This document shows, piece by piece, positions 5,941-58,612 of a stretch of DNA of 64,000 nucleotides; positions within the stretch are counted from its first letter, which is position 1; every line of letters begins with the position of its first letter. The notes below the pieces were generated by a model. The model saw only the letters and a list, made by a program, of their open reading frames with translations. It had not been told where the DNA came from and searched no databases. The stretch lies in the IMG/VR virus record IMGVR_UViG_3300047561_000814, positions 32,001 through 96,000 of that record, one strand, 5' to 3'. The translations under genes and the position numbers were made by a program. This DNA is from a virus. Its lineage: Duplodnaviria > Caudoviricetes.

Positions 5941-8900
5941 ATGAACTACGTAGGCTTACATGTTCATACTCACTACTCCCTATTTGACGGCATAGCAACT
6001 CCACAAGAGTATGTAGACCGTGCTATCAAGTTGGGTATGAACGCTCTTGCAATTACAGATCACGGATCACTTTCTGGTCACAGAGAGTTTTACCGTTCTG
6101 CAAAAGAAAAGGGCATTAAGCCAATCCTTGGTCTAGAAGGATATATGTGTGCAGACATATCAGATAAAAGAGATAAGTCTGAAAGAACAGGTCAACAAGA
6201 TCTTGTTTATAATCATATTATCCTTCTAGCCAAGAACCAAAAAGGTTTAGAAAATCTTAATAAAATTAGCGAAATAGCATGGACGGATGGATTCTTTAAA
6301 AAACCAAGATTTGATTTTGAAATTCTTCAAAAATACAAAGATGGCATTATCGTAACATCTGCTTGCCCTAGCAGCGTTATTGTTAAAGCATTAGAAGAGC
6401 AAGAGTTTGCACTTGCTAAAAAACACATTAAGTGGTTTAAAGATAATTTTGGTAGCGACTACTACATTGAGGTCATGCCACATAATACGCCAGAAATAAA
6501 TAAATATCTTATTGATCTTGCTGATGAATTTAATATTAAAGTAGTAGTTACACCAGACTGTCATCATGTTGATGAATCACAAAAACATATTCAAGAGTTT
6601 AAACTTTTAATGAACACTCATGCTAAAGTACAAAAAGATGCTACATATACAAAATCTGTAAAGATTGATTCTATGATGGAGCGTCTTGATTATCTTTACG
6701 GAGAAGACCGCCAGATAACATTTAATAAGTTTGACATTCATTTACTTTCCTATGAAGAGATTAAGGTAGCAATGAAAAAACAGGGTATTGATAGAGAAGA
6801 CATATACTCAAACACACTATTACTAGCAGAGACAGTAAAAGACTATGAAATTAAAGATGGTCTTGATTTACTTCCAGTTCAATATAAAAATCCAGATCAA
6901 GAATTAGCAACCTTAGCATTTGCTGCATTAGAAGAAAAAAGATTAAACCCTAATTGGCTTGGCAACGATGTTTATGAACAAAGACTTATGGAAGAATTAG
7001 AAATTATTCGTGATAAAAAGTTTGCACCATATTTCTTAGTAGTTCAAAATATGATTTCTTGGGCAAAGAAAGAAGGAATCTTAGTTGGTCCAGGGCGTGG
7101 ATCTTCTGCTGGTTCTTTGGTTTGTTATCTTCTTGGCATTACTGATATTGATCCATTAGAGCATGGGCTTTTGTTCTTTCGTTTTATTAATCCAGAACGT
7201 AATGACTTTCCCGATATTGATACAGACATTCAAGATACTCGTCGTGATGAAGTAAAAGATTATTTAGTTAGACAGTATAGGCATGTAGCATCTATTGCAA
7301 CGTTCCTTCAATTTAAAGATAAAGGTGTTGTGCGAGATGTTGCACGAGTTTTAGATATTCCACTTGCAGATGTTAATAAGGTTTTAAAACTTGTTGACAC
7401 TTGGGATGAATATTGCACATCTAAAACTACATTATCATTTAGAGAAAAATATCCAGAGGTGGAAATTTATGGAGAACAGTTACGTGGTCGTATTAGAGGT
7501 ACTGGCATTCATGCTGCTGGTGTGGTTACTAGTAAGGATCCAATCTTTAGGTATGCGCCATTGGAAACTCGTTCTTCTCCTGGATCCGATTATCGCATTC
7601 CTGTGGTCGGTGTTGATATGGAAGAGGCTGAAAAGATTGGTCTTATTAAAATTGATGCATTAGGACTTAAAACTTTAAGTGTAGTAAAAGATTGTATTGA
7701 CATGATTAAACAAAATCACTACAAAGATATTGATCTTTTATCAATTGATATGACAGACTCTAAAGTATACGAAATGCTTTCAGATGGATATACCAAAGGT
7801 GTGTTTCAGTGTGAGGCAACTCCGTACACAAACCTTCTAGTAAAAATGGGAGTAAAGAATTTTAGCGAGTTAGCAGCATCAAACGCCCTAGTTCGTCCAG
7901 GCGCTATGAACACTATTGGTAAAGATTATATTGCTCGTAAACACGGAAAACAAAACGTTTCTTATATTCATCAAACTATGAAAGAATTCACAGACGACAC
8001 ATATGGGTGTATTCTTTATCAGGAACAGGTTATGCAGGCTTGCGTTTATCTTGGTGGAATGACAATGGCTGAGGCTGACAAGGTTCGTAAGATTATTGGA
8101 AAGAAAAAAGATGCAAAAGAGTTCAATCTATTTCAAGATAGGTTTGTTGCTGGGGCGAGTAAGTTCATATCTCCTAATAAAGCCTTGGATCTATGGAAAG
8201 ACTTTGAGGAACACGCAGGTTATTCGTTCAACAAGAGTCATGCGGTTGCTTATTCTACACTCTCGTATTGGACGGCGTGGTTAAAATACTACTATCCACT
8301 TGAGTTTATGTTTGCCCTTCTTAAAAATGAGAAGGATAAAGACGGTAGAACAGAATATCTAATTGAAGCAAAACGTATGGGTATATCAGTTAAACTACCA
8401 CATATAAATGATTCAGACCTTGACTTTAAAATTGAAGGTAAGGGGATTCGTTTTGGATTAACTGGTATCAAGTTTATTTCAAATAACATTGCACAAAAAT
8501 ATATTGATGCAAGACCATTTAATAGTTATAAACAACTTGAAGAGTTTACATTTACAAAAGGTAATGGCGTAAACAGTAGAGCACTAAATGCGCTTAGGCT
8601 AACTGGTGCTGCAACATTTTCTGATAATCCACGTAACGATGAAGACATTAAAGAAAATCTTTATGAGTATTTAAATCTTCCAGAGTTCAATATTTCTATT
8701 CCATCTCACTATTATGCATTTATTCAATCAATTGAGGATTTTGAAGAAAAAGGATCTTTTATTTTAATGGGTATGGTTAAAGCAATTAAACGAGGAAAGG
8801 GATGGTCAAGGGTTGAAATTTTAGACAAAACTGGAAGCGTTGGTATATTTGATGAAGAATCAACAACTATTGAAACAGGTCGCACCTACTTAATTCTTGC

Positions 8901-25120: not shown

Positions 25121-25194
25121 GCGGATATTGCATAGTGGTAGTGCGTAACCTTGCCAAGGTTAATGTGCGGGTCCGATTCCCGCTATCCGCTCCA
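25121..25194 (+). tRNA. tRNA-Gly(GCC)
   Basis: GCGGATA/TATCCGC acceptor, anticodon loop TTGCCAA, encoded CCA. Confidence 0.92.
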
Positions 25195-25195
25195 A

Positions 25196-25267
25196 GGCCC
25201 TATCTTCTAGTGGTCAGGATACCAGGCTTTCATCTTGGTGAGCAGAGTTCAATTCTCTGTAGGGCTA
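25196..25267 (+). tRNA. tRNA-Glu(TTC)
   Basis: GGCCCTA/TAGGGCT acceptor, CCAGG-CTTTCAT-CTTGG, GTTCAAT T-loop. Confidence 0.9.
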
Positions 25268-25341
25268 CAAAATTCTGATATAATAATATTGTATCTGCCA
25301 AATGGGGATACATTAACTTATTCGCTTGAAAGGGGAATAAA

Positions 25342-25758
25342 ATGGTAACACAGTTTGCAATGGATCTATTCAATGATCCTTTTTTTATTGGCTTTAATAG
25401 AGAGTTAGGCCGTTTAAATACAGCACATAAAGTAAATTCACAGTCATATCCTCCATATGATCTTCTTAAATTAGATGAAGACACCTATATACTATCTCTT
25501 GCTATTGCAGGATTTACAAAAGAATATATTGACGTATCGGTAGACAATGGAACCCTTGTAATTAAAGGAGAAATTGTAGAAGTTACAGATGCTGAAGTTG
25601 TTCACAAGGGAATCGCTGGTCGTAAGTTTGTACGATCTTTTGCTCTTGGCGAATACATGGAAGTATCTAGTGCTGAACTAAAAGATGGACTGCTAACAAT
25701 TAATATTGTTCGTGTTATTCCTGAAGATAAAAAACCTAAAGTAATTAAAATAAAATAA
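25342..25758 (+). CDS. small heat-shock protein (Hsp20/IbpA family)
   Basis: YPPYD, LAIAGF, HKGIA.R.F.R.F.L, DGLL. Confidence 0.95.
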   Translation: MVTQFAMDLFNDPFFIGFNRELGRLNTAHKVNSQSYPPYDLLKLDEDTYILSLAIAGFTKEYIDVSVDNGTLVIKGEIVEVTDAEVVHKGIAGRKFVRSFALGEYMEVSSAELKDGLLTINIVRVIPEDKKPKVIKIK

Positions 25759-25763
25759 AAATA

Positions 25764-25792
25764 ACAACCTGGGCATGTTGCAAAACTGCCTA
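25764..25792 (+). ncRNA. repeated H-type pseudoknot element, copy 1
   Basis: CAAC-CT-GGGCA-T-GTTG-CAAAAC-TGCCT just after the Hsp20 stop. Confidence 0.65.
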
Positions 25793-40881: not shown

Positions 40882-40996
40882 CTTCTTCCTCAAATTCTCT
40901 TAAAGCATTGACATTTTTAAGACAGTTGTAACAATCTTTATTTATTAGTCTTTCCCCACAATATTCACAGAACATATGTATATCATATCATGCGTG

Positions 40997-41067
40997 TAGG
41001 ACTGGAAGGTAACGCTCCTTCTTCTCAGGATTAAAAGTCCTGAGCATCACTTTAATGCTTCAATCCC
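40997..41067 (-). tRNA. tRNA-Lys(TTT), atypical D- and T-loops
   Basis: GGGATTG/CAGTCCT acceptor, CAGGA-CTTTTAA-TCCTG, T-stem GAAGG/CCTTC with AGCGTTA loop. Confidence 0.75.
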
Positions 41068-41071
41068 ATAG

Positions 41072-41144
41072 TACCCACAGTTGGATTTGAACCAACGCTT
41101 TGTGAATTTTAAGTCCACTGCCTCTACCGCTGGGCTATATGGGT
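41072..41144 (-). tRNA. tRNA-Leu(TAA), short variable loop
   Basis: ACCCATA/TGTGGGT, loop CTTAAAA, GTTCAAA. Confidence 0.88.
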
Positions 41145-41147
41145 TTG

Positions 41148-41220
41148 CTGGTCTGGTAGGACTCGGACCTACGACTTGCGAATTAACAGTTCGCCACTCT
41201 ACCAACTGAGTTACAGACCA
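41148..41220 (-). tRNA. tRNA-Asn(GTT)
   Basis: TGGTCTG/CAGACCA, GCGAA-CTGTTAA-TTCGC. Confidence 0.92.
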
Positions 41221-41224
41221 AGAG

Positions 41225-41298
41225 TACACTAGGTAGGACTTGAACCTACGATATCCGAATTATGAGTTCGGGGCCTTAACCAACTTGGCTACTAGTGT
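41225..41298 (-). tRNA. tRNA-CAT (elongator Met or Ile2)
   Basis: ACACTAG/CTAGTGT, CCGAA-CTCATAA-TTCGG. Confidence 0.9.
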
Positions 41299-49745: not shown

Positions 49746-50460
49746 TTTGTTCTCCTTTAGGTCTATATATTAATTATAGGGGTTGGTGTTGATTTTAACA
49801 AGTCCTGTAGGTGTGACCTTGCTCACATCTGTAATGATAGGGACAAAGGCATCTGACAACCCAATATTAACTAAATTAGGAGATCCACAAGAACACCAGC
49901 CTCGCCAGTCTCTGATATTTTTCAGGGTAGTAATCTCCATCAAGGCATCACAATCATTACATACATAATCATACTTAGTCCACATACTTAGTCTCCATAC
50001 ACTTATAAATATTTGTATCACTCATAGCATGAATCCACTCCATGAATTCTTCTTTAGCAAAGTCCTCAGCATCTTCATCTGCTACTTCCATGCCCATTTC
50101 TTTCCAGGAATCTAAATAAATATCTAACTCAAGAGTCACTCTAATACGATTCATTAGTCAAAGTACCCTTCTGCCCATAGACCTTGTAGGAAGTCTTGTG
50201 CCATAACTAAATAATTATGAATAGCGGGGTTTTGGTCTGCATCAAGCATGAAGTCAGCAGTTTTAACTCCATAAACCATGTTTTCTAAATCTTCCAGTGT
50301 ATAGCCTAACATTATCCTACCTCTATTCCTGCATACTTAGCAATAGTGTTTAGTGTAATATGGATATGGCAGTCACAATCAATACCGCCCATGTTTTCCT
50401 CAAACTCTAGGTGTGAGAAGTTATCATCATAGATTTCATTTATTAGGTCATTTATGGTGT

Positions 50461-50679
50461 TCAAGCATATTCCTTTTCATAGGCAGGAAGTGAGGTTACT
50501 ACCAATTCTAACATTTGTGCAGGGTATCTGTCAAGTACCCAATTAAGAGCCTCTCCAGCAGTTTTAAAATCAGAGGCGGTGCTACTGTATCCATACCCCT
50601 GGATAGTTGCTTCCCAGCAATCAATCCCACCAGGAGATACGGCATAGTTCATTTCATAGATTTCTACTTTTAGGGTCAT
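50461..50679 (-). CDS. hypothetical protein
   Basis: Leaderless start below a TTGACA-17-GATAAT promoter. Confidence 0.55.
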   Translation of the reverse strand: MTLKVEIYEMNYAVSPGGIDCWEATIQGYGYSSTASDFKTAGEALNWVLDRYPAQMLELVVTSLPAYEKEYA

Positions 50680-50799
50680 GTATTAATTATCCTACAAACT
50701 GGGAAAAATGTCAAGTATCCGTAATGAGAAAATGGGAAAAATATCATTTCAACGTAATAAGATTATAACAAAAATGTTATCAAACTCGGGGCCCCTTTG

Positions 50800-50873
50800 C
50801 GGCTCTGATGGGACTTGAACCCACGATCTCTACCGTGACAGGGTAGCGCATTAACCAACTATGCTACAGAACC
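50800..50873 (-). tRNA. tRNA-Asp(GTC)
   Basis: GGTTCTG/CAGAGCC, CTACC-CTGTCAC-GGTAG, GTTCAAG. Confidence 0.92.
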
Positions 50874-50880
50874 AAAATAG

Positions 50881-50909
50881 TGAGCAGTTTTAAATCATGC
50901 TCAGGATTT
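50881..50909 (-). ncRNA. repeated H-type pseudoknot element, copy 2
   Basis: AAATC-CT-GAGCA-T-GATTT-AAAAC-TGCTCA. Confidence 0.7.
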
Positions 50910-50914
50910 TTTTA

Positions 50915-51931
50915 CTAAACTAGTTGCAAAGTATTTTGCACAATAGTTAGCAAACGATTTTTCTCTGCATTGGTAGCAGGGTCAAATCCAGAAGCAGCAG
51001 CAAACATGCTTTCGCCATTTGCACTACGAGCAGAACGATACCAGTCTAAACGCTCAGTTAGCGCATTAAACGCACCCCAAGCATTACCACTAATCATTCC
51101 GTTAAATTCACCAGTGTAAATATCGTTAATCATATCTACCTTGTTTTCCCATTTCTTTACAGCACCCTTAGTATCTTTATCAGGCTTAGGGTAAGCAGCA
51201 AGAATAATGTTATTGAAATCTTGTGCGGAGATTTCTTTTGCTATCATGGCATGAGCCATCTTATCAAATTCGTCCATGTAAGAATTAGCCATGCCTAGTG
51301 CCTGACGAGCAACAGCAATTTTGCCCTCAGCGGTTTGGGTATGACGGATTTTGAAAGATTGCTTAACGCCATCTTTCTTGCGTGTGCGGTTAAGTGCAAC
51401 ATTAAGAGTATTAGCACACACAACACGAACTGGTGTTATGCTTGCTTGAATAGCGATTGAACCATCATGTGATGTGTTGATGAGTAAATAAGTCTTTACA
51501 ACATCAGCAACGCCATTAGGGTCTAATACGGTTTCACGCTCTAATGCAAGAGAGCCAAATACCACACGCCCACCACTAATTGAACCAGCGGTTTCCCAAC
51601 GCCCACCACCATCAAGAATGTTATCGCCAAAGGCAAATAAATCCTCATTTTGTAGTGGAACATAACGCTGACCAACAATTCCCAAAACATCAGTTTGAGA
51701 TTTATCAGTAGGGTTAGTGCGAACAACATATTGATATTGTTTATCAGATACTAGGGTAGTGGGGATTTCTAAATCCTCTAGTCTAACATTCCAATTATTA
51801 AGATTAGCAGCAACAAGCATTTCACTTGTATTTTTTTCAGTATCAAATACTGTGCCTAGATTATGCCAAGCAGGTTCTCTAAATGAAGCAAAACTTGCTA
51901 CGCCATTTTGAGTTTCTAAATCATGAGCCAT
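50915..51931 (-). CDS. DUF932-family phage protein
   Basis: AWH.LG, ETAG...GG, SHDG, RVVC.NT, W..FNA..E. Confidence 0.9.
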   Translation of the reverse strand: MAHDLETQNGVASFASFREPAWHNLGTVFDTEKNTSEMLVAANLNNWNVRLEDLEIPTTLVSDKQYQYVVRTNPTDKSQTDVLGIVGQRYVPLQNEDLFAFGDNILDGGGRWETAGSISGGRVVFGSLALERETVLDPNGVADVVKTYLLINTSHDGSIAIQASITPVRVVCANTLNVALNRTRKKDGVKQSFKIRHTQTAEGKIAVARQALGMANSYMDEFDKMAHAMIAKEISAQDFNNIILAAYPKPDKDTKGAVKKWENKVDMINDIYTGEFNGMISGNAWGAFNALTERLDWYRSARSANGESMFAAASGFDPATNAEKNRLLTIVQNTLQLV

Positions 51932-51957
51932 TTTTATCCTTTCGGTTGTTTTAACTA

Positions 51958-51986
51958 AGTCTAGCAGTCATGACTGACAATGTCAA
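51958..51986 (-). promoter_or_regulatory. sigma70 promoter with TGTCAG spacer motif
   Basis: TTGACA-TTGTCAGTCATGACTGC-TAGACT. Confidence 0.8.
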
Positions 51987-52070
51987 CTAGGACTGGGGAA
52001 AATGGTTTAATCTTCTTAAATGGTATAAATCGGACATTTGGGGCCCCCCGAGTTTTTCTGCAGAAATATA

Positions 52071-52098
52071 GAGCCTTTTTAAATCATGCTCAGGATCT
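52071..52098 (-). ncRNA. repeated H-type pseudoknot element, copy 3
   Basis: AGATC-CT-GAGCA-T-GATTT-AAAAA-GGCTC. Confidence 0.65.
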
Positions 52099-52156
52099 TT
52101 GGCCCCTTATTTATACTGGCTGTACCGTCGCCAGTTTTGATAGCCCCCTATCAAAT

Positions 52157-52636
52157 TTAGTAGTGGTCCTCTAATGAAACTTCGTCCACAGTTAAGTCTG
52201 CGTCGTAGTCATATGAATTAAGTTCTGCTTCAATTGAAACATTGCTTAAATCAAAGTCAGCAATTTCTGACATTGGGACGCTGATTGTTCCGCTGAATGA
52301 AACTGTACCTTGTACTTCAATTTCCTTGACTGGATTAACACCAAAGAGTTCACATAGCGCTACAAGAACTTCTTCTTTAGAATAGTTAGGGTCATACCAT
52401 TCTACGATATTGTCTTCAAGTTGACTTACTGTTCCCTGCAGGCTACGCAATAAATCTTCTTTAGCACGTGCACTATGAAGGTCCCATTCAAGTTCTGTTA
52501 CCTTGGATGTTAAATATGTTGGCTCTTCAGGAGCAGCATATGTTCCCGCAATAGCCTTGTACGTTACAAGAAGATTTGGGTTGTACGGTACTTCTAGTTT
52601 ATCAATTGTTACTGCATCGCTGATATTGGTTGACAT
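52157..52636 (-). CDS. acidic hypothetical protein
   Basis: GAGG RBS before MSTNI. Confidence 0.6.
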   Translation of the reverse strand: MSTNISDAVTIDKLEVPYNPNLLVTYKAIAGTYAAPEEPTYLTSKVTELEWDLHSARAKEDLLRSLQGTVSQLEDNIVEWYDPNYSKEEVLVALCELFGVNPVKEIEVQGTVSFSGTISVPMSEIADFDLSNVSIEAELNSYDYDADLTVDEVSLEDHY

Positions 52637-52793
52637 TGTGGGGCCTCTTCCTTGTTGTTTGGTTATTAATCTAATCATAGCAGCGGTCACTGACAAATGC
52701 AAGTTGTAAGCCTAGGGTTCTTAATTAGTCTCACATAATGAGATGTGATTTAGATCACGTTGCCTCGGGGGATTTTTGCAGGGCAATTAAAAA

Positions 52794-52821
52794 TAAGCCT
52801 TTTTGATTCATGCTTAGGAAT
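52794..52821 (-). ncRNA. repeated H-type pseudoknot element, copy 4
   Basis: ATTC-CT-AAGCA-T-GAAT-CAAAAA-GGCTTA. Confidence 0.65.
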
Positions 52822-52891
52822 TTACACCTCTTACAGTTAGTGCGAACTGTGCTCTATAGTATTTCTATGATCGCCCTAATCAGCCTGGCGA

Positions 52892-52919
52892 AAGCAGTTT
52901 GAAATCATGCTCAGGATTT
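52892..52919 (-). ncRNA. repeated H-type pseudoknot element, copy 5
   Basis: AAATC-CT-GAGCA-T-GATTT-CAAAC-TGCTT. Confidence 0.65.
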
Positions 52920-52923
52920 TTTA

Positions 52924-53094
52924 TTATTTAGTTGTGCTTACCATAGCAAGACGACGAGAGCCGTTTGCTAGTTGTAATGAAACCCTAGTAAGTTTAGAAT
53001 TAAGTGGTGAGAACTTTACAATTCTACCTGTAATTCCAGTTTTGCTAGTGGTGAATAAATCACCTAGTTGATATGTGTATCCGCCTAGTGTCAT
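52924..53094 (-). CDS. 56-aa SH3/KOW-like protein (not in ORF track)
   Basis: AAGGA RBS; YQLGDLFTTSKTGITGRI; paralog of 53708. Confidence 0.65.
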   Translation of the reverse strand: MTLGGYTYQLGDLFTTSKTGITGRIVKFSPLNSKLTRVSLQLANGSRRLAMVSTTK

Positions 53095-53188
53095 GATTTT
53101 CCTTTTCTGTTTGGGTGGTTTGCTTACTTACTTAGTCTAACATTTTTTAGGGGGGAAGTCAATTACCCTTCCCCACCTAATTATCTAA

Positions 53189-53611
53189 TTAAAGATAACG
53201 AGCAATAGCGTTATAGGTGCTAGTGCTAACTGTTTCCTCGTCTGTCATTTTAAGGATACGGATAGCGTTTTCCATTTCCTCTTTTTGCTCACGATAAGTG
53301 TGCTGATGTAGTTGCTCAAAATTACGCTCAGGCTCTTTAGGGAACTCGCCTTCCTTAACTGTAATATCAAAATCAACATTAAGGTTTTGGCTGTATGAGC
53401 GATAGTTGGTGCGTAGGTTTTCTGCCTTAGCAACATTAGCGATAGCAAAAACAAATAATTCTTTTTTCCAAGCCTCTATTGCGGTTTGGAACTTTGCTTC
53501 GTTTTCGTCTTGCTTTTTATAGTTAGCCTCTAACTCTGCTAATCTATTTGTTAAGGCTGTAATAACCTTAGCAGTAGCGATTTTTACGCTGATGGGTTTG
53601 CTTCTTGCCAT
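53189..53611 (-). CDS. hypothetical helical protein
   Basis: AAGGA RBS, 140 aa. Confidence 0.65.
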   Translation of the reverse strand: MARSKPISVKIATAKVITALTNRLAELEANYKKQDENEAKFQTAIEAWKKELFVFAIANVAKAENLRTNYRSYSQNLNVDFDITVKEGEFPKEPERNFEQLHQHTYREQKEEMENAIRILKMTDEETVSTSTYNAIARYL

Positions 53612-53658
53612 TTGTTTTGGTTTCCTTTTCGTTTGGTGTAGTTGATGGGGGTTTGAGT

Positions 53659-53688
53659 TGAGCAGTTTTAGTTGTCATGCTCAGGACA
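53659..53688 (-). ncRNA. repeated H-type pseudoknot element, copy 6
   Basis: TGTC-CT-GAGCA-T-GACA-ACTAAAAC-TGCTCA. Confidence 0.7.
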
Positions 53689-53707
53689 TTTAGCCACTAG
53701 GCTAAGA

Positions 53708-53875
53708 CTATGACTTTGCTGTCCAAGTTGTCCAGCGAGTTGCGCCATTAACCTCTAACTTAACACGAACATTACCATTTGCTTGTGGCACGATTTCTGT
53801 AATTGTTCCAGTTGCCTTTGACTTTTGGCTTGTGTAGGTATCTCCTACTTTGTAGATTGCGTTTGCTACTGACAT
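53708..53875 (-). CDS. 55-aa SH3/KOW-like protein (not in ORF track)
   Basis: AGGAG RBS; YKVGDTYTSQKSKATGTI. Confidence 0.65.
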   Translation of the reverse strand: MSVANAIYKVGDTYTSQKSKATGTITEIVPQANGNVRVKLEVNGATRWTTWTAKS

Positions 53876-54096
53876 GGTTCTCCTTTGGTTGTTTTTGCTT
53901 ACTGTATAAGTCTAACATTTTTTGGCTAAAAATACAAATCGTATTTCTAATAATCTCATATTTTGAGATGTGATATCTGTGATGTATATCACACCACGAT
54001 ACCGAAACGGACAAAACGGACATTACTTATGCCCAAGACCTGCGAATAAGACCATGACAAATAAGATAGTTAGAATTGTTAATTCCAAGATTACCC

Positions 54097-54825
54097 CTAT
54101 TTTTTAGATGATGAAAAAACTATGTCGCTCTTAGAGTATACACACAATCCGCAAGAAACGCAAGCAGAGCCAGCGCTTGATATAAGTGGAATGGCTTTTA
54201 AGTTTTCAGGACACTTAGCGCCAGGTTTATTAAATAACTCTTTCATATCTGCTTGACCTATTGCAAAATTCTTTGCAAGGTATGCAAGGCGTATGCCATG
54301 ATCTTTTTTAAGACTAACGCCTATCTCTTTATTCTCGCTGTCTGTAGAATAGTATAAAGATAGATTAGGAATATTCTTAAGCATTAGTGCTGCAGACTGT
54401 ACTCTAGTGTATACCCAAAACTTTATATCTGTATTGTTAAGGATGATATATTGCCATGCTCTAGTGTACTTATCATTAAAGAAGTCACCGTCCCAGTGAA
54501 TGCGAAATAGCAATGGCGCATTTTTCTTTTCACAATCTTTTTTAAAATCAGCAATCATGTTTTCTAATAAATCAACCATGGTAGGTTCATCTGCGTCTTT
54601 CAATAACTCCCAATTGTGTAGGAGGTTAGTCTTTACTCCTTTGAATAACTTTTCAAGTTTTCCCGCGTAGCAAACACTTTCACAAATATTAGTGGCACCA
54701 GGGCATGAGTAAGCCTTTCCAGCAGGGAGGCCGAATGTGTTCGCAATTGCGGCTTGCTTTCCATTTTTTGTAACAAGATTAGCAACCTTTCTATCATGTG
54801 ATCTTTTTAGTTGTGGTGTTGTCAT
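54097..54825 (-). CDS. gp88-like protein (radical-SAM-like Cys motif)
   Basis: CPGA...C...CYA, FRIHW.GDF, YTR, terminal C..C..C. Confidence 0.75.
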   Translation of the reverse strand: MTTPQLKRSHDRKVANLVTKNGKQAAIANTFGLPAGKAYSCPGATNICESVCYAGKLEKLFKGVKTNLLHNWELLKDADEPTMVDLLENMIADFKKDCEKKNAPLLFRIHWDGDFFNDKYTRAWQYIILNNTDIKFWVYTRVQSAALMLKNIPNLSLYYSTDSENKEIGVSLKKDHGIRLAYLAKNFAIGQADMKELFNKPGAKCPENLKAIPLISSAGSACVSCGLCVYSKSDIVFSSSKK

Positions 54826-54906
54826 ATGAAAATTCTAGCAGAATATGGGAAAAATATCAAGTCGCCTTAATTGGTACAAATCGGACAAATCGCCCTCGGG
54901 CGCCTC

Positions 54907-55158
54907 TTAGAGCAACATCATTAAATCAAATTGGTCGTATTCACCAACTTGAATTATTTCACTTTCACCAAAATCATTGACAACTTCTAAAGTGTATCCG
55001 TCAGGTAGTGAAATTATATCTGCAATAGACACAACCTCATCGTCAATTAAAATACAATCATCAACCATTAACTGTCCTGCAGTTAAGATATCAACTTTTA
55101 CGTAGTCCACAATCTGAATAGTATCATCATTTTCTAGATCAATCACATTACTCCTCAA
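54907..55158 (-). CDS. small acidic hypothetical protein
   Basis: ORF in the small-gene array. Confidence 0.5.
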   Translation of the reverse strand: MRSNVIDLENDDTIQIVDYVKVDILTAGQLMVDDCILIDDEVVSIADIISLPDGYTLEVVNDFGESEIIQVGEYDQFDLMMLL

Positions 55159-55229
55159 TTTCTGCTAGTGTTTCCCATAGAATAGGTTCTAGTATTAGTG
55201 CAACTGCGTCTAACTTATCTTGCAAGTCC

Positions 55230-55514
55230 TTACTCATCTACTGGCTCAATAAACCAATGCAGGTGGTGTCCATCAACAATGAATTTTGCTGGTGCTTCTG
55301 ACTGACCACGCCAAGTAATCTGAAAGTCATTTACTTTTGGCAAGGTAATCATACGGTCATAGTCCTCATCATAGTAAGCGTCAATAGCCTCAATACAAGG
55401 TTGCACCATTTCAGAAGGCACTGGTGGATAATGATTACCACGCAAGTGATATAGAATCTGAGTTTCTAAATCTAATACTGAATCCTTGATACCTAGTGCT
55501 GTTACGGAACCCAT
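55230..55514 (-). CDS. hypothetical protein
   Basis: HL..NHYPPVP motif. Confidence 0.6.
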   Translation of the reverse strand: MGSVTALGIKDSVLDLETQILYHLRGNHYPPVPSEMVQPCIEAIDAYYDEDYDRMITLPKVNDFQITWRGQSEAPAKFIVDGHHLHWFIEPVDE

Positions 55515-55515
55515 A

Positions 55516-55725
55516 TTATTTCACACTCACATTTCCGTTGCGATAGAAGGTCTTAGTATACATCTTACCCGTAGGGTCTGACAAGTTGTAGGTTGCGTAT
55601 TCTTTAGCGTCGCCAAAGTCCACACACTTAGTCCAAGCATTGACTGCCTCTAGCATATCGCTAACTCGCAGGGTATGAATTAACTCTCCATCATATGAAG
55701 TAGTAAGTGAATAAGTATATTCCAT
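55516..55725 (-). CDS. hypothetical protein
   Basis: AGGAG RBS. Confidence 0.6.
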   Translation of the reverse strand: MEYTYSLTTSYDGELIHTLRVSDMLEAVNAWTKCVDFGDAKEYATYNLSDPTGKMYTKTFYRNGNVSVK

Positions 55726-56195
55726 TATGCGTTCTCCTTAGTAGAAAATAAAGCGTGGGCAGTAAATAATTCATCAGCAGGGATATTGTAAGGATTACAC
55801 TCACACGCCCATACATCGTAGTCTATCTCATTACCTGCAAATTGCCAACCTTGTCCGTAGCACATGTCGCAAGCAAGTATTTCCATTATGGCATTTTTAA
55901 CTTTTCCCATTAGCAATACCAATCCTCTCCTAAAGCCTTTTCAGCACACCAATCAGTATAGTGCTTATCGCACATAGTTTCAACATTAGAGTTAATCATG
56001 TTGATATTATTTTTTGTAGCGTAACAAATATTACACATAGTTTTCCTTTCGTTATATCTTTATCCTATCAGACTGGACTGACAAAATCCAATTAGACACG
56101 AAGAATCTGGACAATCTGGAGTGTGATCTTAACCACATAATGGCCCTGTGGATAACCCTGTGGAAAACGCCCCGAGGATTTTAGAACAAATGTTC

Positions 56196-56222
56196 GGACA
56201 GTTTTAGATCGTGTCCAGGATT
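56196..56222 (-). ncRNA. repeated H-type pseudoknot element, copy 7
   Basis: ATC-CT-GGACA-C-GAT-CTAAAAC-TGTCC; compensatory stem 2. Confidence 0.7.
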
Positions 56223-56363
56223 TTTATTTATACTTTTAGCGCTTTACGCAATTCATTTCGCAATCTGCGAATTTCTTTATCTTGTGCAACATTTTGTTTA
56301 TAAAACAAAAACATTACCAACATTGAACCGCTTAGCGCAATTATTACAGCAAGCAAATCTAAA

Positions 56364-56555
56364 TTAGTTAACATTTACAAATCCAATCTCGTCAATACCG
56401 CAAGCCTTTTCAAATCTTGCGAAATCAAAGTTTTCGTTATCTGCTTTGAACCAATCAGCAAAAGTATCTACCAAATCCTCATAAATAGTTTGCGGAATAT
56501 CTTGTGCAAAACTTTTAAGAATATTTGCGGTTTGTATGTAGTCTTTTCTAGTCAT
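56364..56555 (-). CDS. conserved small phage protein
   Basis: MTRKDY..A...DN..FD..RF..AC. Confidence 0.7.
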   Translation of the reverse strand: MTRKDYIQTANILKSFAQDIPQTIYEDLVDTFADWFKADNENFDFARFEKACGIDEIGFVNVN

Positions 56556-56703
56556 TAGTTAGCCTCTCCGCTAGTAAATAAATCGCCTAATGCAAAATCG
56601 CTACAATTACATTTTTCTACATCATAGTCAAGGTCGTTGCCCCAAAAGACAAGACCAACACCATTACACTCATCACAAGGAAAAGACATTACAGAATTTA
56701 TCA

Positions 56704-56889
56704 TTATACTAACGCCTTTCCTCTAAGTGTGCCACTAACCCCAAGCATATCGCAAGATAATTTAACAGATACGCCAACAGGTAATTGGTTTGGATAAGTG
56801 CTTATGAATTGAGCAACCGCACCCTTAGAAGGTAGGTTGATTTTTTTTACAGACCCATTATAGGTTTCTAGTTTTACAGTATAAGTCAT
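56704..56889 (-). CDS. hypothetical protein
   Basis: AGGTGG RBS. Confidence 0.55.
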   Translation of the reverse strand: MTYTVKLETYNGSVKKINLPSKGAVAQFISTYPNQLPVGVSVKLSCDMLGVSGTLRGKALV

Positions 56890-57231
56890 TTCTGACCACC
56901 TTTCGTTTGTTTGTTTATATGGTAAGTTTAGCAGGTTTGGCAGACATTATCAAATTCAAATTCGGACATTTAGGACATTGGGGGTGTGAGATACCTCACA
57001 ACGCCCCTTCGTTAAATAAGCCTATTTCTAACTCTAGGAGAGTTTCAGGCGGTATATCTGAAAGATCAAGCCACCCCGCACCCTCAGAATTCATGGTGAA
57101 AATTTCTACATAACCCATTATTTAGCCACCTTCCAATTTAGCACGATACAACTATCGCACATAGCAGGGATACCACGCTTAGAAGCATAAGCGGTATTTG
57201 TATAGCAAAACTCACAAAGTTTTTTTATCAT

Positions 57232-58419: not shown

Positions 58420-58612
58420 TAGGACAAAATGGACATTGTGTCTTGTGATGTAGGTCATGTGGATAACTTACGCTCAAAATTCAATGTGATGTGCGTCATG
58501 TGGATAACTGATCACGAGGTCGGGCGTGTCGGTCCCCGAGTCAATGTCCGATTTGCACCATTTGTCATGTGGTGCATATCACTAATTACATGCGTGTTAT
58601 TCACGGCGTGTC
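58420..58612. promoter_or_regulatory. divergent control region with CRP-like, DnaA-box and GACAC motifs
   Basis: TGTGATGT..GTCATGTGGATAACT twice, GGCGTGTCG twice, TGTGGTGCATATCACT. Confidence 0.65.

What the first reader, a model, noticed from the sequence alone, without database searches (positions are those of the whole stretch)
50881..56222. Dispersed family of covarying mini H-type pseudoknots at gene 3' ends (7 copies)
Seen: a ~28-nt element S1-CT-S2-Y-S1'-(A-rich, AAAAC/AAAAA)-S2' at 25764-25792 (+) and at 50881-50909, 52071-52098, 52794-52821, 52892-52919, 53659-53688 and 56196-56222 (-). Both stems change sequence yet keep pairing. S1: CAAC/GTTG, AAATC/GATTT, ATTC/GAAT, TGTC/GACA. S2: GGGCA/TGCCT, GAGCA/TGCTC, TAAGC/GCTTA, GGACA/TGTCC. 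The CT linker, single pyrimidine and A-rich loop 3 are constant. Every copy is in the transcribed orientation and follows a stop codon (usually within ~20 nt) or another copy; one sits 7 nt before tRNA-Asp. Inference: a functional RNA module I cannot assign to a family. Options are a nuclease-blocking 3' cap or processing signal, a non-canonical terminator, or a protein decoy; size and topology resemble type III toxin-antitoxin RNA pseudoknots, which phages are known to mimic.
Basis: partly seen in the sequence, partly recalled or inferred. Interest (0 to 1): 0.85.

Follow-up and report, generated by a model that had tools for sequence, protein, structure and literature searches.

The report
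Widespread phage mini-pseudoknot after stop codons
A real, roughly 27-base RNA pseudoknot occurs seven times in this phage and in very many unrelated phages and prophages, it usually sits just outside the space a ribosome occupies at a stop codon, it matches no catalogued RNA family, and what it does is still unknown.

Summary
The element is an H-type pseudoknot: S1 (3-6 bp, closed by C-G), then C-Y, S2 (5 bp), usually U, S1', N0-3 AAAC, S2', then usually A.

Both stems covary. Whole-IMG/VR scans found GAGCA..UGCUC in at least 118 loci and GGACA..UGUCC in at least 120. The two mixed forms were found in only 2 and 4 loci.

Copies occur in phages of Actinobacteria, Cyanobacteria, Firmicutes and Proteobacteria, and in prophage or mobile-element regions of many phyla. 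Rfam 15 has no match for the window copies. The closest family is GP20-b, with a weak hit on one relative.

The element follows same-strand ORFs with a sharp minimum spacing, so that a 4-bp S1 starts 5 nt after the stop. In 24 of 433 copies it sits 3-14 nt before a tRNA.

My best reading (about 40%) is a compact fold that marks and protects ORF 3' boundaries. The type III antitoxin-mimic, canonical-terminator and frameshift readings are not supported.

The parts
25765..25792 (+). Pseudoknot copy 1: CAAC-CU-GGGCA-U-GUUG-CAAAAC-UGCCU-A, followed by U6.
   Evidence: R1 score 35.7 bits. It follows the TAA stop (25756-25758) of ORF 25342-25758 after a 6-nt spacer.
50881..50909 (-). Pseudoknot copy 2: AAAUC-CU-GAGCA-U-GAUUU-AAAAC-UGCUC-A.
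   Evidence: R1 score 47.1 bits, and this copy was not in the seed. S1 starts 5 nt after the TAG stop (50917-50915) of the DUF932 gene. The copy ends 7 nt before tRNA-Asp.
52071..52098 (-). Pseudoknot copy 3, second allele: AGAUC-CU-GAGC(A)-U-GAUUU-AAAAA-(G)GCUC.
   Evidence: R1 score 38.9 bits. It lies 58 nt after the stop of ORF 52157-52702, with the hairpin TTGATAGGGGGCTATCAA in between. A promoter-like site follows at 51986-51958.
52794..52821 (-). Pseudoknot copy 4, second allele: AUUC-CU-AAGC(A)-U-GAAU-CAAAAA-(G)GCUU-A.
   Evidence: R1 score 33.8 bits. It lies 70 nt after copy 5.
52892..52919 (-). Pseudoknot copy 5: AAAUC-CU-GAGCA-U-GAUUU-CAAAC-UGCUU.
   Evidence: R1 score 41.7 bits. There are 8 nt between the TAA stop (52926-52924) and the junction C.
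53659..53688 (-). Pseudoknot copy 6, long loop 3: UGUC-CU-GAGCA-U-GACA-ACUAAAAC-UGCUC-A.
   Evidence: R1 score 32.1 bits, and this copy was not in the seed. It lies 20 nt after the stop of ORF 53708-53875, with the hairpin TTAGCCTAGTGGCTAA in between. The next ORF starts about 50 nt downstream.
56196..56221 (-). Pseudoknot copy 7: AUC-CU-GGACA-C-GAU-CUAAAAC-UGUCC.
   Evidence: R1 score 25.0 bits. There are 8 nt between the TAA stop (56230-56228) and the junction C.
50799..50873 (-). tRNA-Asp(GUC), immediately downstream of copy 2.
   Evidence: 68.9 bits. The same ORF-pseudoknot-tRNA-Asp order is seen in 13 related contigs.
50915..51931 (-). DUF932 gene, whose stop codon abuts copy 2.
   Evidence: PF06067, E = 6.8e-48; about 53% identity to Streptomyces phage proteins.

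Best explanation
The element is a self-contained, very compact H-type RNA pseudoknot, probably stiffened by base triples. Phages and other mobile elements place it at the 3' boundary of an open reading frame.

Proposed mechanism (inferred, not shown). The knot folds as soon as it leaves the polymerase. It sits at the closest position where a ribosome decoding the stop codon does not have to melt it. From there it blocks exonucleases, and possibly helicases or sliding ribosomes. When the transcript is cut or ends further downstream, the upstream coding RNA keeps a protected end and its stop codon. The downstream cut could be made by RNase P at a following tRNA, by a ribozyme or by a host endonuclease, or the transcript could end by termination or read-through.

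A knot rather than a GC hairpin would give protection without creating an intrinsic terminator inside an operon. In Firmicutes phages the same module lies in front of the scaffold and capsid genes, where it may protect the 5' side of the downstream message in the same way.

What is shown: the fold (by covariation), the strand, the distribution and the positional rules. What is inferred: nuclease blockage, triple-helix contacts and any effect on RNA half-life.
For: Fold.
- S1: with hits chosen without looking at S1, the three outer pairs all form in 147 of 203 copies, against 25 expected after permutation, using 33 different trinucleotides.
- S2: whole-collection scans gave GAGCA..TGCTC in at least 118 loci, GGACA..TGTCC in at least 120, GGACA..TGCTC in 2 and GAGCA..TGTCC in 4.
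- On 150 distinct copies the covariation score is 0.407 against 0.155 in shuffles (0 of 500 shuffles reach it), and sliding the 3' partners drops pairing from 89% to 26-37%.
- Orthologous DUF932|knot|tRNA-Asp sites show compensated S1 changes such as ATTC/GAAT, ACTC/GAGT and TTTC/GAAA.

The element belongs to the upstream ORF.
- 141 of 156 copies have a same-strand ORF stop within 150 nt upstream, and 82 of 156 within 20 nt. Only 14 of 156 have a convergent ORF end that close.
- The distance to the next start codon is broad.

Spacing.
- Among 202 unique copies with an upstream ORF, the number of nt between the stop and the junction C is 8 in 27, 9 in 22 and 10 in 14. Only 5 copies fall at 4-7 nt. 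The only others closer than 8 are 13 copies whose stop codon lies inside the knot.
- The independent GGACA set shows 20 at 8 nt, 3 at 9, 5 at 10 and none below 8, among 76 copies with an upstream stop.
- Four window copies have 8, 8, 9 and 9 nt.
- This places a 4-bp S1 5 nt after the A-site codon. [quoted passage not shown]

Copies lie just before RNA cleavage sites.
- 24 of 433 unique copies have a same-strand tRNA starting 3-14 nt downstream (mode 4 nt). Only 2 have a tRNA ending within 30 nt upstream, and none has an opposite-strand tRNA nearby.
- The arrangement recurs in unrelated phages: Arthrobacter phage Molivia has SSB|knot|3 nt|tRNA-Gly, and Nostoc phage NMeng1 has knot|4 nt|tRNA.
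- One copy ends 6 nt before a twister-like ribozyme.

It is not a terminator. Hairpin-plus-T sites are no more frequent near copies than at control ORF ends (9 of 248 and 13 of 248, against 22 of 600).

Conserved unpaired bases fit a triplex-type compact knot.
- The first base of loop 1 is C. Only 7 loci in IMG/VR have another base there, and only 2 of those have 3 or more S1 pairs.
- The middle A of loop 3 is non-A in 1 locus.
- Compact polerovirus knots with a loop 3/stem 1 minor-groove triplex are described in PMC5009743.
Against: - No experiment or read-level RNA data bears on function. The only RNA libraries holding related sequence are assembled contigs of relatives, which cannot show ends.
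- A passive roadblock does not obviously need such strong conservation of C7, A22 and the 3' A across hosts of many phyla. Authors of motif surveys take a pseudoknot plus several >=97% conserved nucleotides in several phyla as a sign of a more demanding biochemical function (passage read in PMC5737381).
- In three Firmicutes-type phages (phiEF-1.1, Javan119, D6E) a terminator-like hairpin plus T-run lies upstream of the knot, so there the knot is not the 3' cap of the upstream gene.
- In 13 of 202 copies the stop codon lies inside the knot.
- Nested-only folding energies are modest, -2.6 to -9.5 kcal/mol. The stability of the full knot could not be computed with these tools.
Frequencies are therefore lower bounds and the sample is biased.
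Confidence: 0.4

Rival explanations
1. It is a cis-regulatory leader for the downstream gene. On this reading the knot is a minimal aptamer, comparable in fold to preQ1-I, that binds a small molecule or a universal or phage protein and so sets translation or stability of the next gene. The Rfam candidate motif GP20-b, found upstream of scaffold genes, would be one branch of it.
For: - A weak GP20-b match (21.9 bits, gathering score 36.2, E = 0.0087 on 201 nt) lies exactly on the copy in Streptococcus phage Javan119. The GP20-b hairpin corresponds to S2.
- In four cultured phages the knot lies 31-108 nt upstream of the scaffold gene, which is followed by the capsid gene: Staphylococcus StauST398-3, Javan119, Lactobacillus phiEF-1.1 and phage D6E. 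The same holds in locus L242, where the downstream protein matches PF06810 at E = 3e-49.
- C7 and A22 are nearly invariant and unpaired.
- PMC10690425 and PMC5737381 treat GP20-a and GP20-b as likely cis-regulatory (passages read).
Against: - The distance to the next start codon is broad and often exceeds 120 nt (56 of 156 copies), while the distance to the upstream stop is sharp.
- Downstream genes are unrelated to each other. Clustering of flanking proteins shows no shared family outside relatives of this phage, apart from scaffold proteins.
- Copies also precede tRNAs, promoter-like sites and terminators, and they occur in tandem.
- Seven copies per genome in front of unrelated small genes is unlike known riboswitches.
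- No Rfam riboswitch matches at E <= 10.
Confidence: 0.2
2. It is an RNA processing signal in its own right. It would be either a new minimal self-cleaving ribozyme or a helix-stack mimic cut by a universal enzyme such as RNase P, and it would chop polycistronic phage RNA into units.
For: - It is found in hosts from many bacterial phyla and on contigs binned with Methanobrevibacter. That favours a universal partner or none at all.
- It lies close to self-cleaving ribozymes in three loci. L172 has twister-like matches of 36-41 bits, one starting 6 nt after a knot. L113 has a twister-like match of 46 bits and a hammerhead match of 30.3 bits. L063 has a Pistol match of 44.3 bits, above its gathering score, 56 nt before two knots.
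- The base after S2' is A in 96 of 152 copies, and the next two positions are C-enriched (68 and 55 of 152) and G-poor. This loosely recalls an RCC tail.
- Several unpaired bases are nearly invariant.
Against: - About 27 nt is smaller than any natural self-cleaving class I know of (recalled).
- No known ribozyme family matches the knot itself.
- Exact ACCA follows only 6 of 152 copies.
- There is no T-loop-like element.
- Where a tRNA follows, RNase P already has its own site 3-14 nt away.
- The ribozyme neighbours number three loci out of 458 held, and I did not scan all loci for ribozymes.
Confidence: 0.13
3. It acts on the ribosome at the stop codon. It would be a brake or insulator that stops read-through, sliding or re-initiating ribosomes from entering the next unit, or it would tune termination or recycling, without recoding.
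For: - It has the same spacing as recoding stimulators, starting 5 nt or more after the A-site codon (PMC5009743).
- The topology, 2-nt loop 1 beginning with C, 1-nt junction and A-rich loop 3 resemble compact polerovirus frameshift knots (the sequence features of those knots are recalled; compactness and triplex are).
- Placement in front of tRNAs and other structured RNAs would keep ribosomes off them.
Against: - There is no recoding signature. The knot's UGA is in frame with the ORF in 79 of 202 copies, against 64 and 59 for the other two frames.
- X_XXY_YYZ heptamers at 5-9 nt occur in 11 of 202 copies, and 0 of them lie in frame before the stop. The control rate is 83 of 4040.
- About 40% of copies lie more than 20 nt from any long ORF stop or behind another copy.
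- Copies in Firmicutes phages lie behind a terminator-like hairpin.
Confidence: 0.1
4. It is a non-canonical transcription terminator. S2 would play the part of the terminator hairpin, stabilised by S1.
For: - Copy 1 (UGCCUA followed by UUUUUU) and 48 of 248 copies overall have at least 6 T in the 10 nt after S2'.
- In the window no canonical terminator follows the small genes, although promoter-like sites follow four copies.
Against: - 200 of 248 copies lack a T-tract.
- Many copies lie 16-60 nt before the next co-directional gene, or 3-14 nt before a tRNA that must be transcribed.
- None of the 7 window copies was called terminator-like.
- The tiny-ORF class carries a normal terminator after the knot.
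Confidence: 0.05
5. It is mainly a DNA-level cassette boundary. Repeated identical 27-mers would serve as recombination joints for swapping small gene cassettes, like the promoter-early stem-loop cassettes of T4-type phages, or it is a decoy for type III toxins.
For: - Contigs of relatives in RNA libraries join 52793 to 52923, 52096 to 52850 and 50907 to 53715. Their break points therefore lie at the knots.
- In the window each cassette reads promoter-like site, small gene, knot.
Against: - G-U pairs occur on one strand only, and compensatory changes in both stems show selection on an RNA fold.
- Cross-phylum conservation is not explained by recombination within one phage lineage.
- Against the decoy idea: there is no tandem array, no ToxN-like neighbour among 7 proteins tested and no family match.
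Confidence: 0.05

Closest known systems
GP20-b RNA motif (Rfam RF03003; candidate cis-regulatory RNA upstream of phage GP20/scaffold genes; Weinberg et al. 2017, PMC5737381; Fremin et al. 2023, PMC10690425)
   Same: In the one relative that matches (Javan119, L124:2001-2066, 21.9 bits), the GP20-b hairpin (ccgca..ugcgg with loop GgCgUAAAAg) lines up with S2, S1' and loop 3 of this knot. The 5' gGuC lines up with S1. Several copies of the knot lie upstream of scaffold genes.
   Different: - No window copy reaches even E <= 10 against GP20-b.
- The best relative stays below the gathering score of 36.2.
- The structure line that cmscan printed for this model shows only a hairpin and no pseudoknot.
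- GP20-b has an extra conserved 3' block (UAAAAAAGCgUA) that is not part of this element.
- It is defined by one gene context, whereas this element is dispersed, multi-copy and mostly behind stop codons.
Compact -1 frameshift pseudoknots of poleroviruses and enamoviruses (BWYV, PLRV, ScYLV, PEMV-1)
   Same: Both are H-type knots of about 27-28 nt with a very short loop 1 beginning with C, a single junction nucleotide and an A-rich loop 3 opposite stem 1. Both start 5-9 nt after the A-site codon (the sequence features of the viral knots are recalled; compactness, triplex and spacing are from passages of PMC5009743).
   Different: - This element occurs in DNA phages and prophages.
- It sits behind stop codons, not slippery sites: 0 of 202 copies have an in-frame heptamer, and there is no frame preference.
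- S2 is 5 bp, where I recall about 3 bp for the viral knots.
- Copies also precede tRNAs.
preQ1-I riboswitch aptamer (Rfam RF00522)
   Same: It is the smallest known natural aptamer, an H-type knot with an A-rich 3' tail pairing into the hairpin loop (recalled).
   Different: There is no match at E <= 10. Loop 2 here is 1 nt and variable (T 125, A 17, C 9, G 1 of 152). The element is not in the leaders of queuosine-related genes, and it has seven copies per genome.
Type III antitoxin RNAs (ToxI, CptI, TenpI)
   Same: They are short RNAs that adopt pseudoknot folds, and phages are known to carry mimics (recalled; reviews were listed but not read).
   Different: Those RNAs are tandem repeats of 34-45 nt next to a ToxN-type endoribonuclease gene, and they co-evolve with their toxin. 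Here the copies are dispersed, no such gene was found among the 7 neighbours tested, and one sequence type spans many host phyla.
3' stem-loop stabilisers (REP/BIME elements, terminator hairpins) and exoribonuclease-resistant RNAs (xrRNA)
   Same: The proposed working principle is the same: a stable fold at the end of a coding segment, or at a processed end, halts exonucleases (recalled).
   Different: Those elements are simple hairpins or larger ring-like folds. None is a 27-nt knot with fixed loop bases, and none is known to keep a fixed distance from the stop codon. Function here is inferred only.
Promoter-early stem-loop (PeSL) cassettes of T4-type phages
   Same: Small early genes are each flanked by a promoter and a repeated structured element, and relatives differ by whole cassettes (recalled; window layout).
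   Different: PeSL repeats are lineage-specific hairpins. This element is a covarying pseudoknot shared across unrelated phage families.

Membership tests
GP20-b RNA (RF03003) | Scores at or above the Rfam gathering score (36.2 bits). | tested here: not met
   No GP20-b hit on window 50600-56500 at E <= 10, and none in the whole window at gathering threshold. The best relative, L124, scores 21.9 bits. Eight loci with the AAAA-GGCUY allele or a scaffold context gave no GP20-b hit at E <= 1.
GP20-b RNA (RF03003) | Lies directly upstream of a GP20 / Phage_scaffold (PF06810) gene. | tested here: not met
   The window genes next to the copies are DUF932, GP88 and proteins with no Pfam family; I found no scaffold gene among the 7 proteins tested. 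The feature is met in some relatives: L242, and D6E, phiEF-1.1 and StauST398-3.
Type III antitoxin RNA | Tandem array of direct repeats of 34-45 nt. | tested here: not met
   Tandem Repeats Finder on 50000-57000 finds only three 9-12-nt mini-repeats. Copy spacings are 98 nt to several kb.
Type III antitoxin RNA | Adjacent ToxN/AbiQ-type endoribonuclease gene. | tested here: not met
   Pfam on 7 neighbouring proteins gives DUF932, GP88, a weak LapA_dom hit and four with no family. Not every ORF of the window was scanned.
Intrinsic (Rho-independent) terminator | GC-rich hairpin immediately followed by a U-tract. | tested here: not met
   None of the 7 copies is among the 8 terminator-like sites of the region. 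48 of 248 copies have at least 6 T in the next 10 nt, and 200 do not.
preQ1-I riboswitch | Match to RF00522 and location in the leader of queuosine-pathway genes. | tested here: not met
   No match at E <= 10. Neighbouring genes are unrelated to queuosine.
Programmed -1 frameshift stimulator (polerovirus-type knot) | Compact H-type knot with short loop 1, 1-nt junction and A-rich loop 3. | tested here: met
   See the 30-column alignment of 150 copies and its pair counts, and the loop conservation scans.
Programmed -1 frameshift stimulator (polerovirus-type knot) | In-frame slippery heptamer X_XXY_YYZ 5-9 nt upstream, and an extended ORF in the new frame. | tested here: not met
   0 of 202 copies have an in-frame heptamer before the stop. 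11 of 202 have any heptamer, against 83 of 4040 control positions. There is no frame preference.
Self-cleaving ribozyme classes (twister, hammerhead, pistol, hatchet, HDV-like) | Match of the element itself to a ribozyme model. | tested here: not met
   No ribozyme model overlaps any copy. Ribozyme matches lie beside copies, not on them. Self-cleavage itself cannot be tested with these tools.
Exonuclease-blocking 3' stabiliser (functional class) | RNA 3' ends accumulate at the element, and the upstream RNA is stabilised. | not testable with these tools
   Only assembled contigs of relatives were available from RNA libraries.

The most novel reading that the evidence does not exclude
The knot is not a passive roadblock but a new, universal, biochemically active RNA device. 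It would be either the smallest natural self-cleaving ribozyme or RNase P-type processing signal, or a minimal aptamer, used by phages of bacteria (and perhaps archaea) as a punctuation mark between genes. Three observations favour this reading. First, C7 and A22 are nearly invariant unpaired bases, and the 3' A is conserved in most copies. Second, the element is spread across phyla. Third, it lies next to tRNA 5' ends and near twister, pistol and hammerhead ribozymes.
Probability: 0.25. Interest if true: 0.95.

Novelty: new variant of a known kind. Interest (0 to 1): 0.8.

Why it matters
If the reading holds, phages of very different hosts share one tiny RNA module that marks the end of a reading frame. 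This would be a new and very common layer of gene punctuation in phage and prophage transcripts.

- It would explain many short conserved intergenic stretches.
- It would give genome annotators a strand and gene-end marker.
- It would offer a 27-nt portable stabiliser or insulator for synthetic operons.
- It would tie the orphan Rfam candidate GP20-b to a much larger family with a defined pseudoknot.

The sharp distance rule also makes a concrete question testable: does a fold that sits at the edge of the terminating ribosome control the fate of the message?

If instead the conserved loop bases reflect catalysis or ligand binding, this would be among the smallest natural functional RNAs known.

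Tried and rejected
**Known RNA families.** Rfam 15 at gathering threshold on the whole window and at E <= 10 on 50600-56500 found only tRNAs and chance-level hits.

**Close relatives among cultured phages.** Megablast of the 5.7-kb region found nothing. A search of E. coli genomes with a 34-nt copy also found nothing. That database is very large, so the E-value limit is strict and this is weak evidence of absence.

**Read-level RNA evidence.** The six RNA runs listed hold only 7-11% of the sampled words and are kept as contigs. The four that I laid (X19-X22) gave fragments of relatives, mostly 90-99% alike. They show no ends and no strand, and they are not proof of transcription. I draw no conclusion from covered or uncovered parts.

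**Recoding.** The in-frame test of the knot's UGA and the slippery-site test were both negative.

**Canonical terminators next to copies.** There is no enrichment over control ORF ends.

**General excess of H-type knots in this genome.** A generic descriptor found 29 candidates, against 20-36 in ten first-order Markov simulations. It recovered only 4 of the 7 family copies, so only this sequence family stands out.

**A sixth S2 pair (loop-1 U with the 3' A).** Rejected. When loop 1 is CC, the 3' base is still A in 26 of 35 copies.

**ACCA-type tRNA-like tail.** Only 6 of 152 copies have it.

**Shared flanking protein family.** None was found beyond relatives of this phage and scaffold proteins.

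**Literature.**
- The motif strings were found only as DNA, in unrelated papers by the titles of the 20 listed; I opened none. The RNA-letter strings were found in none.
- Word searches for phage pseudoknots, exonuclease-resistant RNAs and pseudoknots after stop codons gave nothing on this element.
- GP20-a and GP20-b are named in two papers. I read passages of one of them, PMC10690425, and did not open the other.
- GP20 does not occur in the main text of PMC5737381, which I had found.
- Supplements are closed. The 10,006 candidate RNAs of PMC10690425 and the GP20 notes of PMC5737381 may already include this element, and I could not check.

Full report
**What is in the window**

The window is bases 32001-96000 of a single 104,477-bp contig with 35.6% G+C. 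Reading the stated coordinates shows seven copies of one element:
- one copy on the + strand at 25765-25792;
- six copies on the - strand at 50909-50881, 52098-52071, 52821-52794, 52919-52892, 53688-53659 and 56221-56196.

The core pattern CCTRRRCAYG hits exactly these seven places. One hundred dinucleotide-preserving shuffles gave a mean of 1.14 hits and never more than 4. The rest of the contig holds no further copy.

I built a covariance model from 150 relatives, five window copies among them. It scores the seven copies at 25.0-47.1 bits, and the next best place in the window scores 15.1 bits.

A generic search for any A-rich-loop H-type knot in the contig found 29 candidates, against 20-36 in ten Markov simulations. 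The signal therefore belongs to this sequence family and not to a general tendency of the genome.

**Anatomy**

In RNA sense the element reads as follows:
- S1: 3-6 bp, always closed by C-G at the junction.
- Loop 1: C-Y.
- S2: 5 nt.
- Junction: one nucleotide. It is U in 125 of 152 unique copies, A in 17, C in 9 and G in 1.
- S1', followed by loop 3, which is N0-3 plus AAAC.
- S2', followed by A in 96 of 152 copies.

S1' plus loop 3 total 10 nt in 134 of 152 copies. A second allele, AAAA-GGCUY, loses the last S2 pair; window copies 3 and 4 have it.

Nested-only folding picks S2 alone and gives only -2.6 to -9.5 kcal/mol. The two stems are mutually exclusive unless they form a pseudoknot.

**Is the fold real?**

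- *S1.* With hits chosen without looking at S1, its three outer pairs all form in 147 of 203 copies. Permuting the partners gives 25. The fully paired copies use 33 different trinucleotides.
- *S2.* With hits chosen without looking at S2, all five pairs form in 122 of 169 copies, against 96 after permutation. The margin is small because S2 is conserved in that sample.
- *The decisive S2 test* is a 2x2 count over the whole IMG/VR collection. The mixed forms GGACA..TGCTC and GAGCA..TGTCC occur in 2 and 4 loci.
- *Pair counts.* On the 150-row alignment, 8 of 11 proposed pairs show changes on both sides. The covariation score is 0.407 against 0.155 in shuffles (0 of 500 reach it). Sliding the partners by 1-3 columns drops pairing from 89% to 26-37%.
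- *Caveat.* I had required seven of these pairs (three in S1 and four in S2) to be formed when collecting the rows. Those percentages are therefore inflated, and searches are the unbiased tests.
- *Orthologous sites.* Sites between the DUF932 gene and tRNA-Asp in 14 contigs show compensated S1 changes.
- *Strand.* G-U pairs fix the strand as the sense strand of the genes.

**Conserved unpaired bases**

- In the GAGCA allele, only 7 IMG/VR loci have a loop-1 first base other than C. Of the five that my script could read with enough flank, two have three or more S1 pairs.
- 59 loci have a second loop-1 base other than U, and it is mostly C. The 3' A stays A in 26 of the 35 copies with loop 1 = CC, so it is not a sixth S2 pair.
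- The middle A of loop 3 is replaced in 1 locus, and the third A in 19.
- A loop-1 C, a single extruded junction base and an A-rich loop 3 facing stem 1 are what I recall of the compact polerovirus frameshift knots. A review describes those knots as remarkably compact, with a loop 3/stem 1 minor-groove triplex (passages of PMC5009743).
- That the same contacts form here is my inference.

**Distribution**

Short BLAST queries found copies in intergenic DNA of cultured phages of very different kinds (regions read):
- Paracoccus ParMal1 and ParKuw1 (T7-like);
- cyanophages S-RIM4, S-EIVl, S-H35 and S-WAM1;
- Mycobacterium phage Labelle;
- Arthrobacter phage Molivia;
- Nostoc phage NMeng1 and Microcystis phage Mwe-JY13;
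- a block of 83 Staphylococcus phage records;
- Streptococcus Javan prophages and Lactobacillus phiEF-1.1;
- the thermophilic phage D6E, Moorella and Bacillus phages, Vibrio phages and gut phages.

Some hits are chance coding matches, for example in Pseudomonas. Many are well-formed copies in Saccharibacteria, Anaerolineae, Thermodesulfobacteriota, Lachnospiraceae, Weissella, Nocardia, Akkermansia, cyanobacterial and Methanobrevibacter assemblies.

Where I annotated the flanks, they are prophage or mobile-element genes: integrase, D12 methylase, Mu F-like head protein, Phage_scaffold and ArdC/IrrE.

DNA runs from freshwater metagenomes hold the window region, one at 95% of sampled words and many others at about 30%.

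**Known families**

No Rfam 15 family matches the window copies.

One relative, the copy in Streptococcus phage Javan119, gives a sub-threshold hit to GP20-b (RF03003) at 21.9 bits, against a gathering score of 36.2. In the printed alignment the GP20-b hairpin is S2 of this knot, and its loop is the junction base, S1' and loop 3. The printed structure line shows no pseudoknot.

GP20-a and GP20-b are candidate cis-regulatory motifs upstream of GP20 genes (passages of PMC10690425). GP20 is not discussed in the main text of PMC5737381. PF06810 is now called Phage capsid assembly scaffolding protein.

Eight other loci with the second allele or a scaffold context gave no GP20-b hit at E <= 1. GP20-b therefore looks like one catalogued twig of a much larger family whose pseudoknot has not been annotated.

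**Position rules**

The element belongs to the end of an ORF.
- 141 of 156 copies have a same-strand ORF stop within 150 nt upstream, and 82 of 156 within 20 nt. Only 14 of 156 have a convergent ORF end within 20 nt.
- Among 202 unique copies with an upstream ORF, the number of bases between the stop codon and the junction C is 8 in 27 copies, 9 in 22, 10 in 14 and 11 in 10.
- Only five copies lie at 4-7 nt. The only closer class is 13 copies whose UGA or UAA stop lies within the knot's CC-UGA or CC-UAA.
- The GGACA allele set was collected independently and repeats this: 20 copies at 8 nt, 3 at 9, 5 at 10 and none below 8, among 76 copies with an upstream stop.
- Four window copies have 8, 8, 9 and 9 nt.
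- A 4-bp S1 thus begins 5 nt after the stop codon. [quoted passage not shown] That the ribosomal helicase acts near position +11 is recalled, not checked.
- The distance to the next start codon is broad.
- There is no recoding signature. The knot's UGA is in frame in 79 of 202 copies, against 64 and 59 for the other frames. No in-frame slippery heptamer precedes any of the 202.

**What lies downstream**

- *tRNAs.* In 24 of 433 unique copies a same-strand tRNA starts 3-14 nt behind the knot (mode 4 nt). The tRNAs are Asp, Asn, Leu, Ser, Arg, Tyr and Gly. Only 2 copies have a tRNA ending within 30 nt upstream, and none has an opposite-strand tRNA nearby. Seventeen of the 24 also have an ORF stop 7-13 nt before the junction. 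The recurrent unit is therefore ORF, knot, tRNA.
- *Scaffold and capsid genes.* In D6E the knot lies between the portal gene and the scaffold and capsid genes. In StauST398-3 and phiEF-1.1 it lies after a small ORF of the head-gene block and before those genes, and in Javan119 it also lies before them. In phiEF-1.1, Javan119 and D6E a hairpin plus T-run precedes the knot.
- *Promoter-like sites.* In the window, four copies are followed by promoter-like sites, and no canonical terminator follows the small genes.
- *Terminators.* Terminator-like sites are no more common near copies than at control ORF ends, and 48 of 248 copies have a T-tract directly behind them.
- *Ribozymes.* In an ORF-poor 4-kb stretch of one Selenomonadaceae contig (L172) there are seven copies and three twister-like matches. 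One knot ends 6 nt before the twister's UAA. The two other twisters are preceded by a differently sequenced candidate knot. Pistol and hammerhead matches lie near copies in two further loci.

**Interpretation**

The fold, the strand, the spread and the position rules are shown. The function is not. I rank the readings as follows.

1. *Boundary or end-cap module, about 0.4.* The knot sits as close to the stop codon as it can without being melted by the terminating ribosome. It stays folded, and it becomes the terminal structure of the upstream coding RNA once the transcript is cut at a following tRNA (RNase P), at a ribozyme or at an endonuclease site, or once it is trimmed from a distal end. 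A short 3' tail of 3-8 nt would give processive 3' exonucleases little to hold; that such enzymes need about 7 nt or more is recalled. A knot avoids creating a hairpin-plus-U terminator inside AT-rich operons. In Firmicutes phages the same module behind a hairpin/T-run may protect the 5' side of the abundant scaffold-capsid message.
2. *Cis-regulatory aptamer in the sense of GP20-b, about 0.2.*
3. *Processing signal or ribozyme, about 0.13.*
4. *Ribosome brake or insulator without recoding, about 0.1.*
5. *Unusual terminator, about 0.05.*
6. *DNA-level cassette joint or antitoxin decoy, about 0.05.*

The strongest argument against reading 1 is the near-invariance of C7 and A22 and the conservation of the 3' A across hosts of many phyla. 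By the criteria quoted in PMC5737381, that points to a more demanding biochemical task. Triplex contacts within the knot could also explain it.

**Limits**

- Instances were gathered with sequence patterns and pairing filters.
- Gene calls are stop-to-stop ORFs of 40-50 codons or more, not curated genes.
- RNA libraries gave only contigs of relatives.
- Supplementary tables that may already list this element could not be opened.

Noticed in passing
L143, L148, L159, L163, L177, L179, L196, L199, L202, L231 (stop inside the knot); L206, L222, L245 (stop 6 nt earlier): A family of tiny ORFs (about 20-26 aa, MKRFxxPRxAHCxxGC...) lies in cellular MAG contigs of several phyla. Their UGA stop is the UGA within CC-UGA-GCAUG of the pseudoknot. 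They are often preceded by a strong promoter-like site and followed by an intrinsic terminator. Third-codon-position variation suggests real coding. No Pfam or NCBIfam family matches.
   Followed up: partly
L216, around position 3420-3449 (- strand): A copy of the pseudoknot lies inside a spacer of a CRISPR-like repeat array (repeat ...CTTTGCAGGCGAAGCAGCATTGAAAC). A host has therefore acquired a spacer from a knot-bearing element.
   Followed up: no
L172:1-4200: This is an ORF-poor stretch with seven knot copies, other repeated non-coding modules and three twister-P1-like matches (36-41 bits, below the gathering score). A differently sequenced candidate H-type knot (CCCAG-UUA-GAGCU-CUGGG-UUACCAAA-AGCUC) takes the place of the family knot in front of two of the twisters.
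   Followed up: partly
L063:6338-6415; L113:3788-3842 and 6020-6078: A Pistol ribozyme match above its gathering score (44.3 bits) lies 56 nt before two tandem knots in L063. In L113, twister-like (46 bits) and hammerhead (30.3 bits) matches lie within about 1.1 kb of a knot.
   Followed up: no
window 50785-50791, 52046-52052, 52764-52770, 56170-56176, 58534-58540: The GC-rich heptamer CCCCGAG/CTCGGGG occurs in either orientation, 5 times against 0.81 expected (0 of 100 shuffles reach 5). Four of the five occurrences lie between a knot (or the tRNA) and the next promoter-like site. TGTCCGATTT-like repeats lie beside it but are not significant. On the + strand, one of these sites is part of a terminator-like hairpin.
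   Followed up: partly
window 50907/53715, 52096/52850, 52793/52923: Contigs of relatives from freshwater RNA libraries join these positions, skipping 2807, 753 and 129 nt. Relatives therefore differ by whole small-gene cassettes, with break points at the knots. The tandem pair of copies 5 and 4 is a single copy in some relatives.
   Followed up: partly
window 52100-52156 and 53689-53707 (- strand): In copies 3 and 6, small hairpins (TTGATAGGGGGCTATCAA and TTAGCCTAGTGGCTAA) sit between the stop codon and the knot. Similar GGGGCTA-type hairpins precede knots in related contigs L001, L078, L090, L096 and L097.
   Followed up: no
window 25121-25268, 40996-41298, 50799-50873: The window holds seven tRNA genes in three groups: Gly and Glu; Lys, Leu, Asn and Met; and Asp. 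Only tRNA-Asp is preceded by a knot.
   Followed up: no
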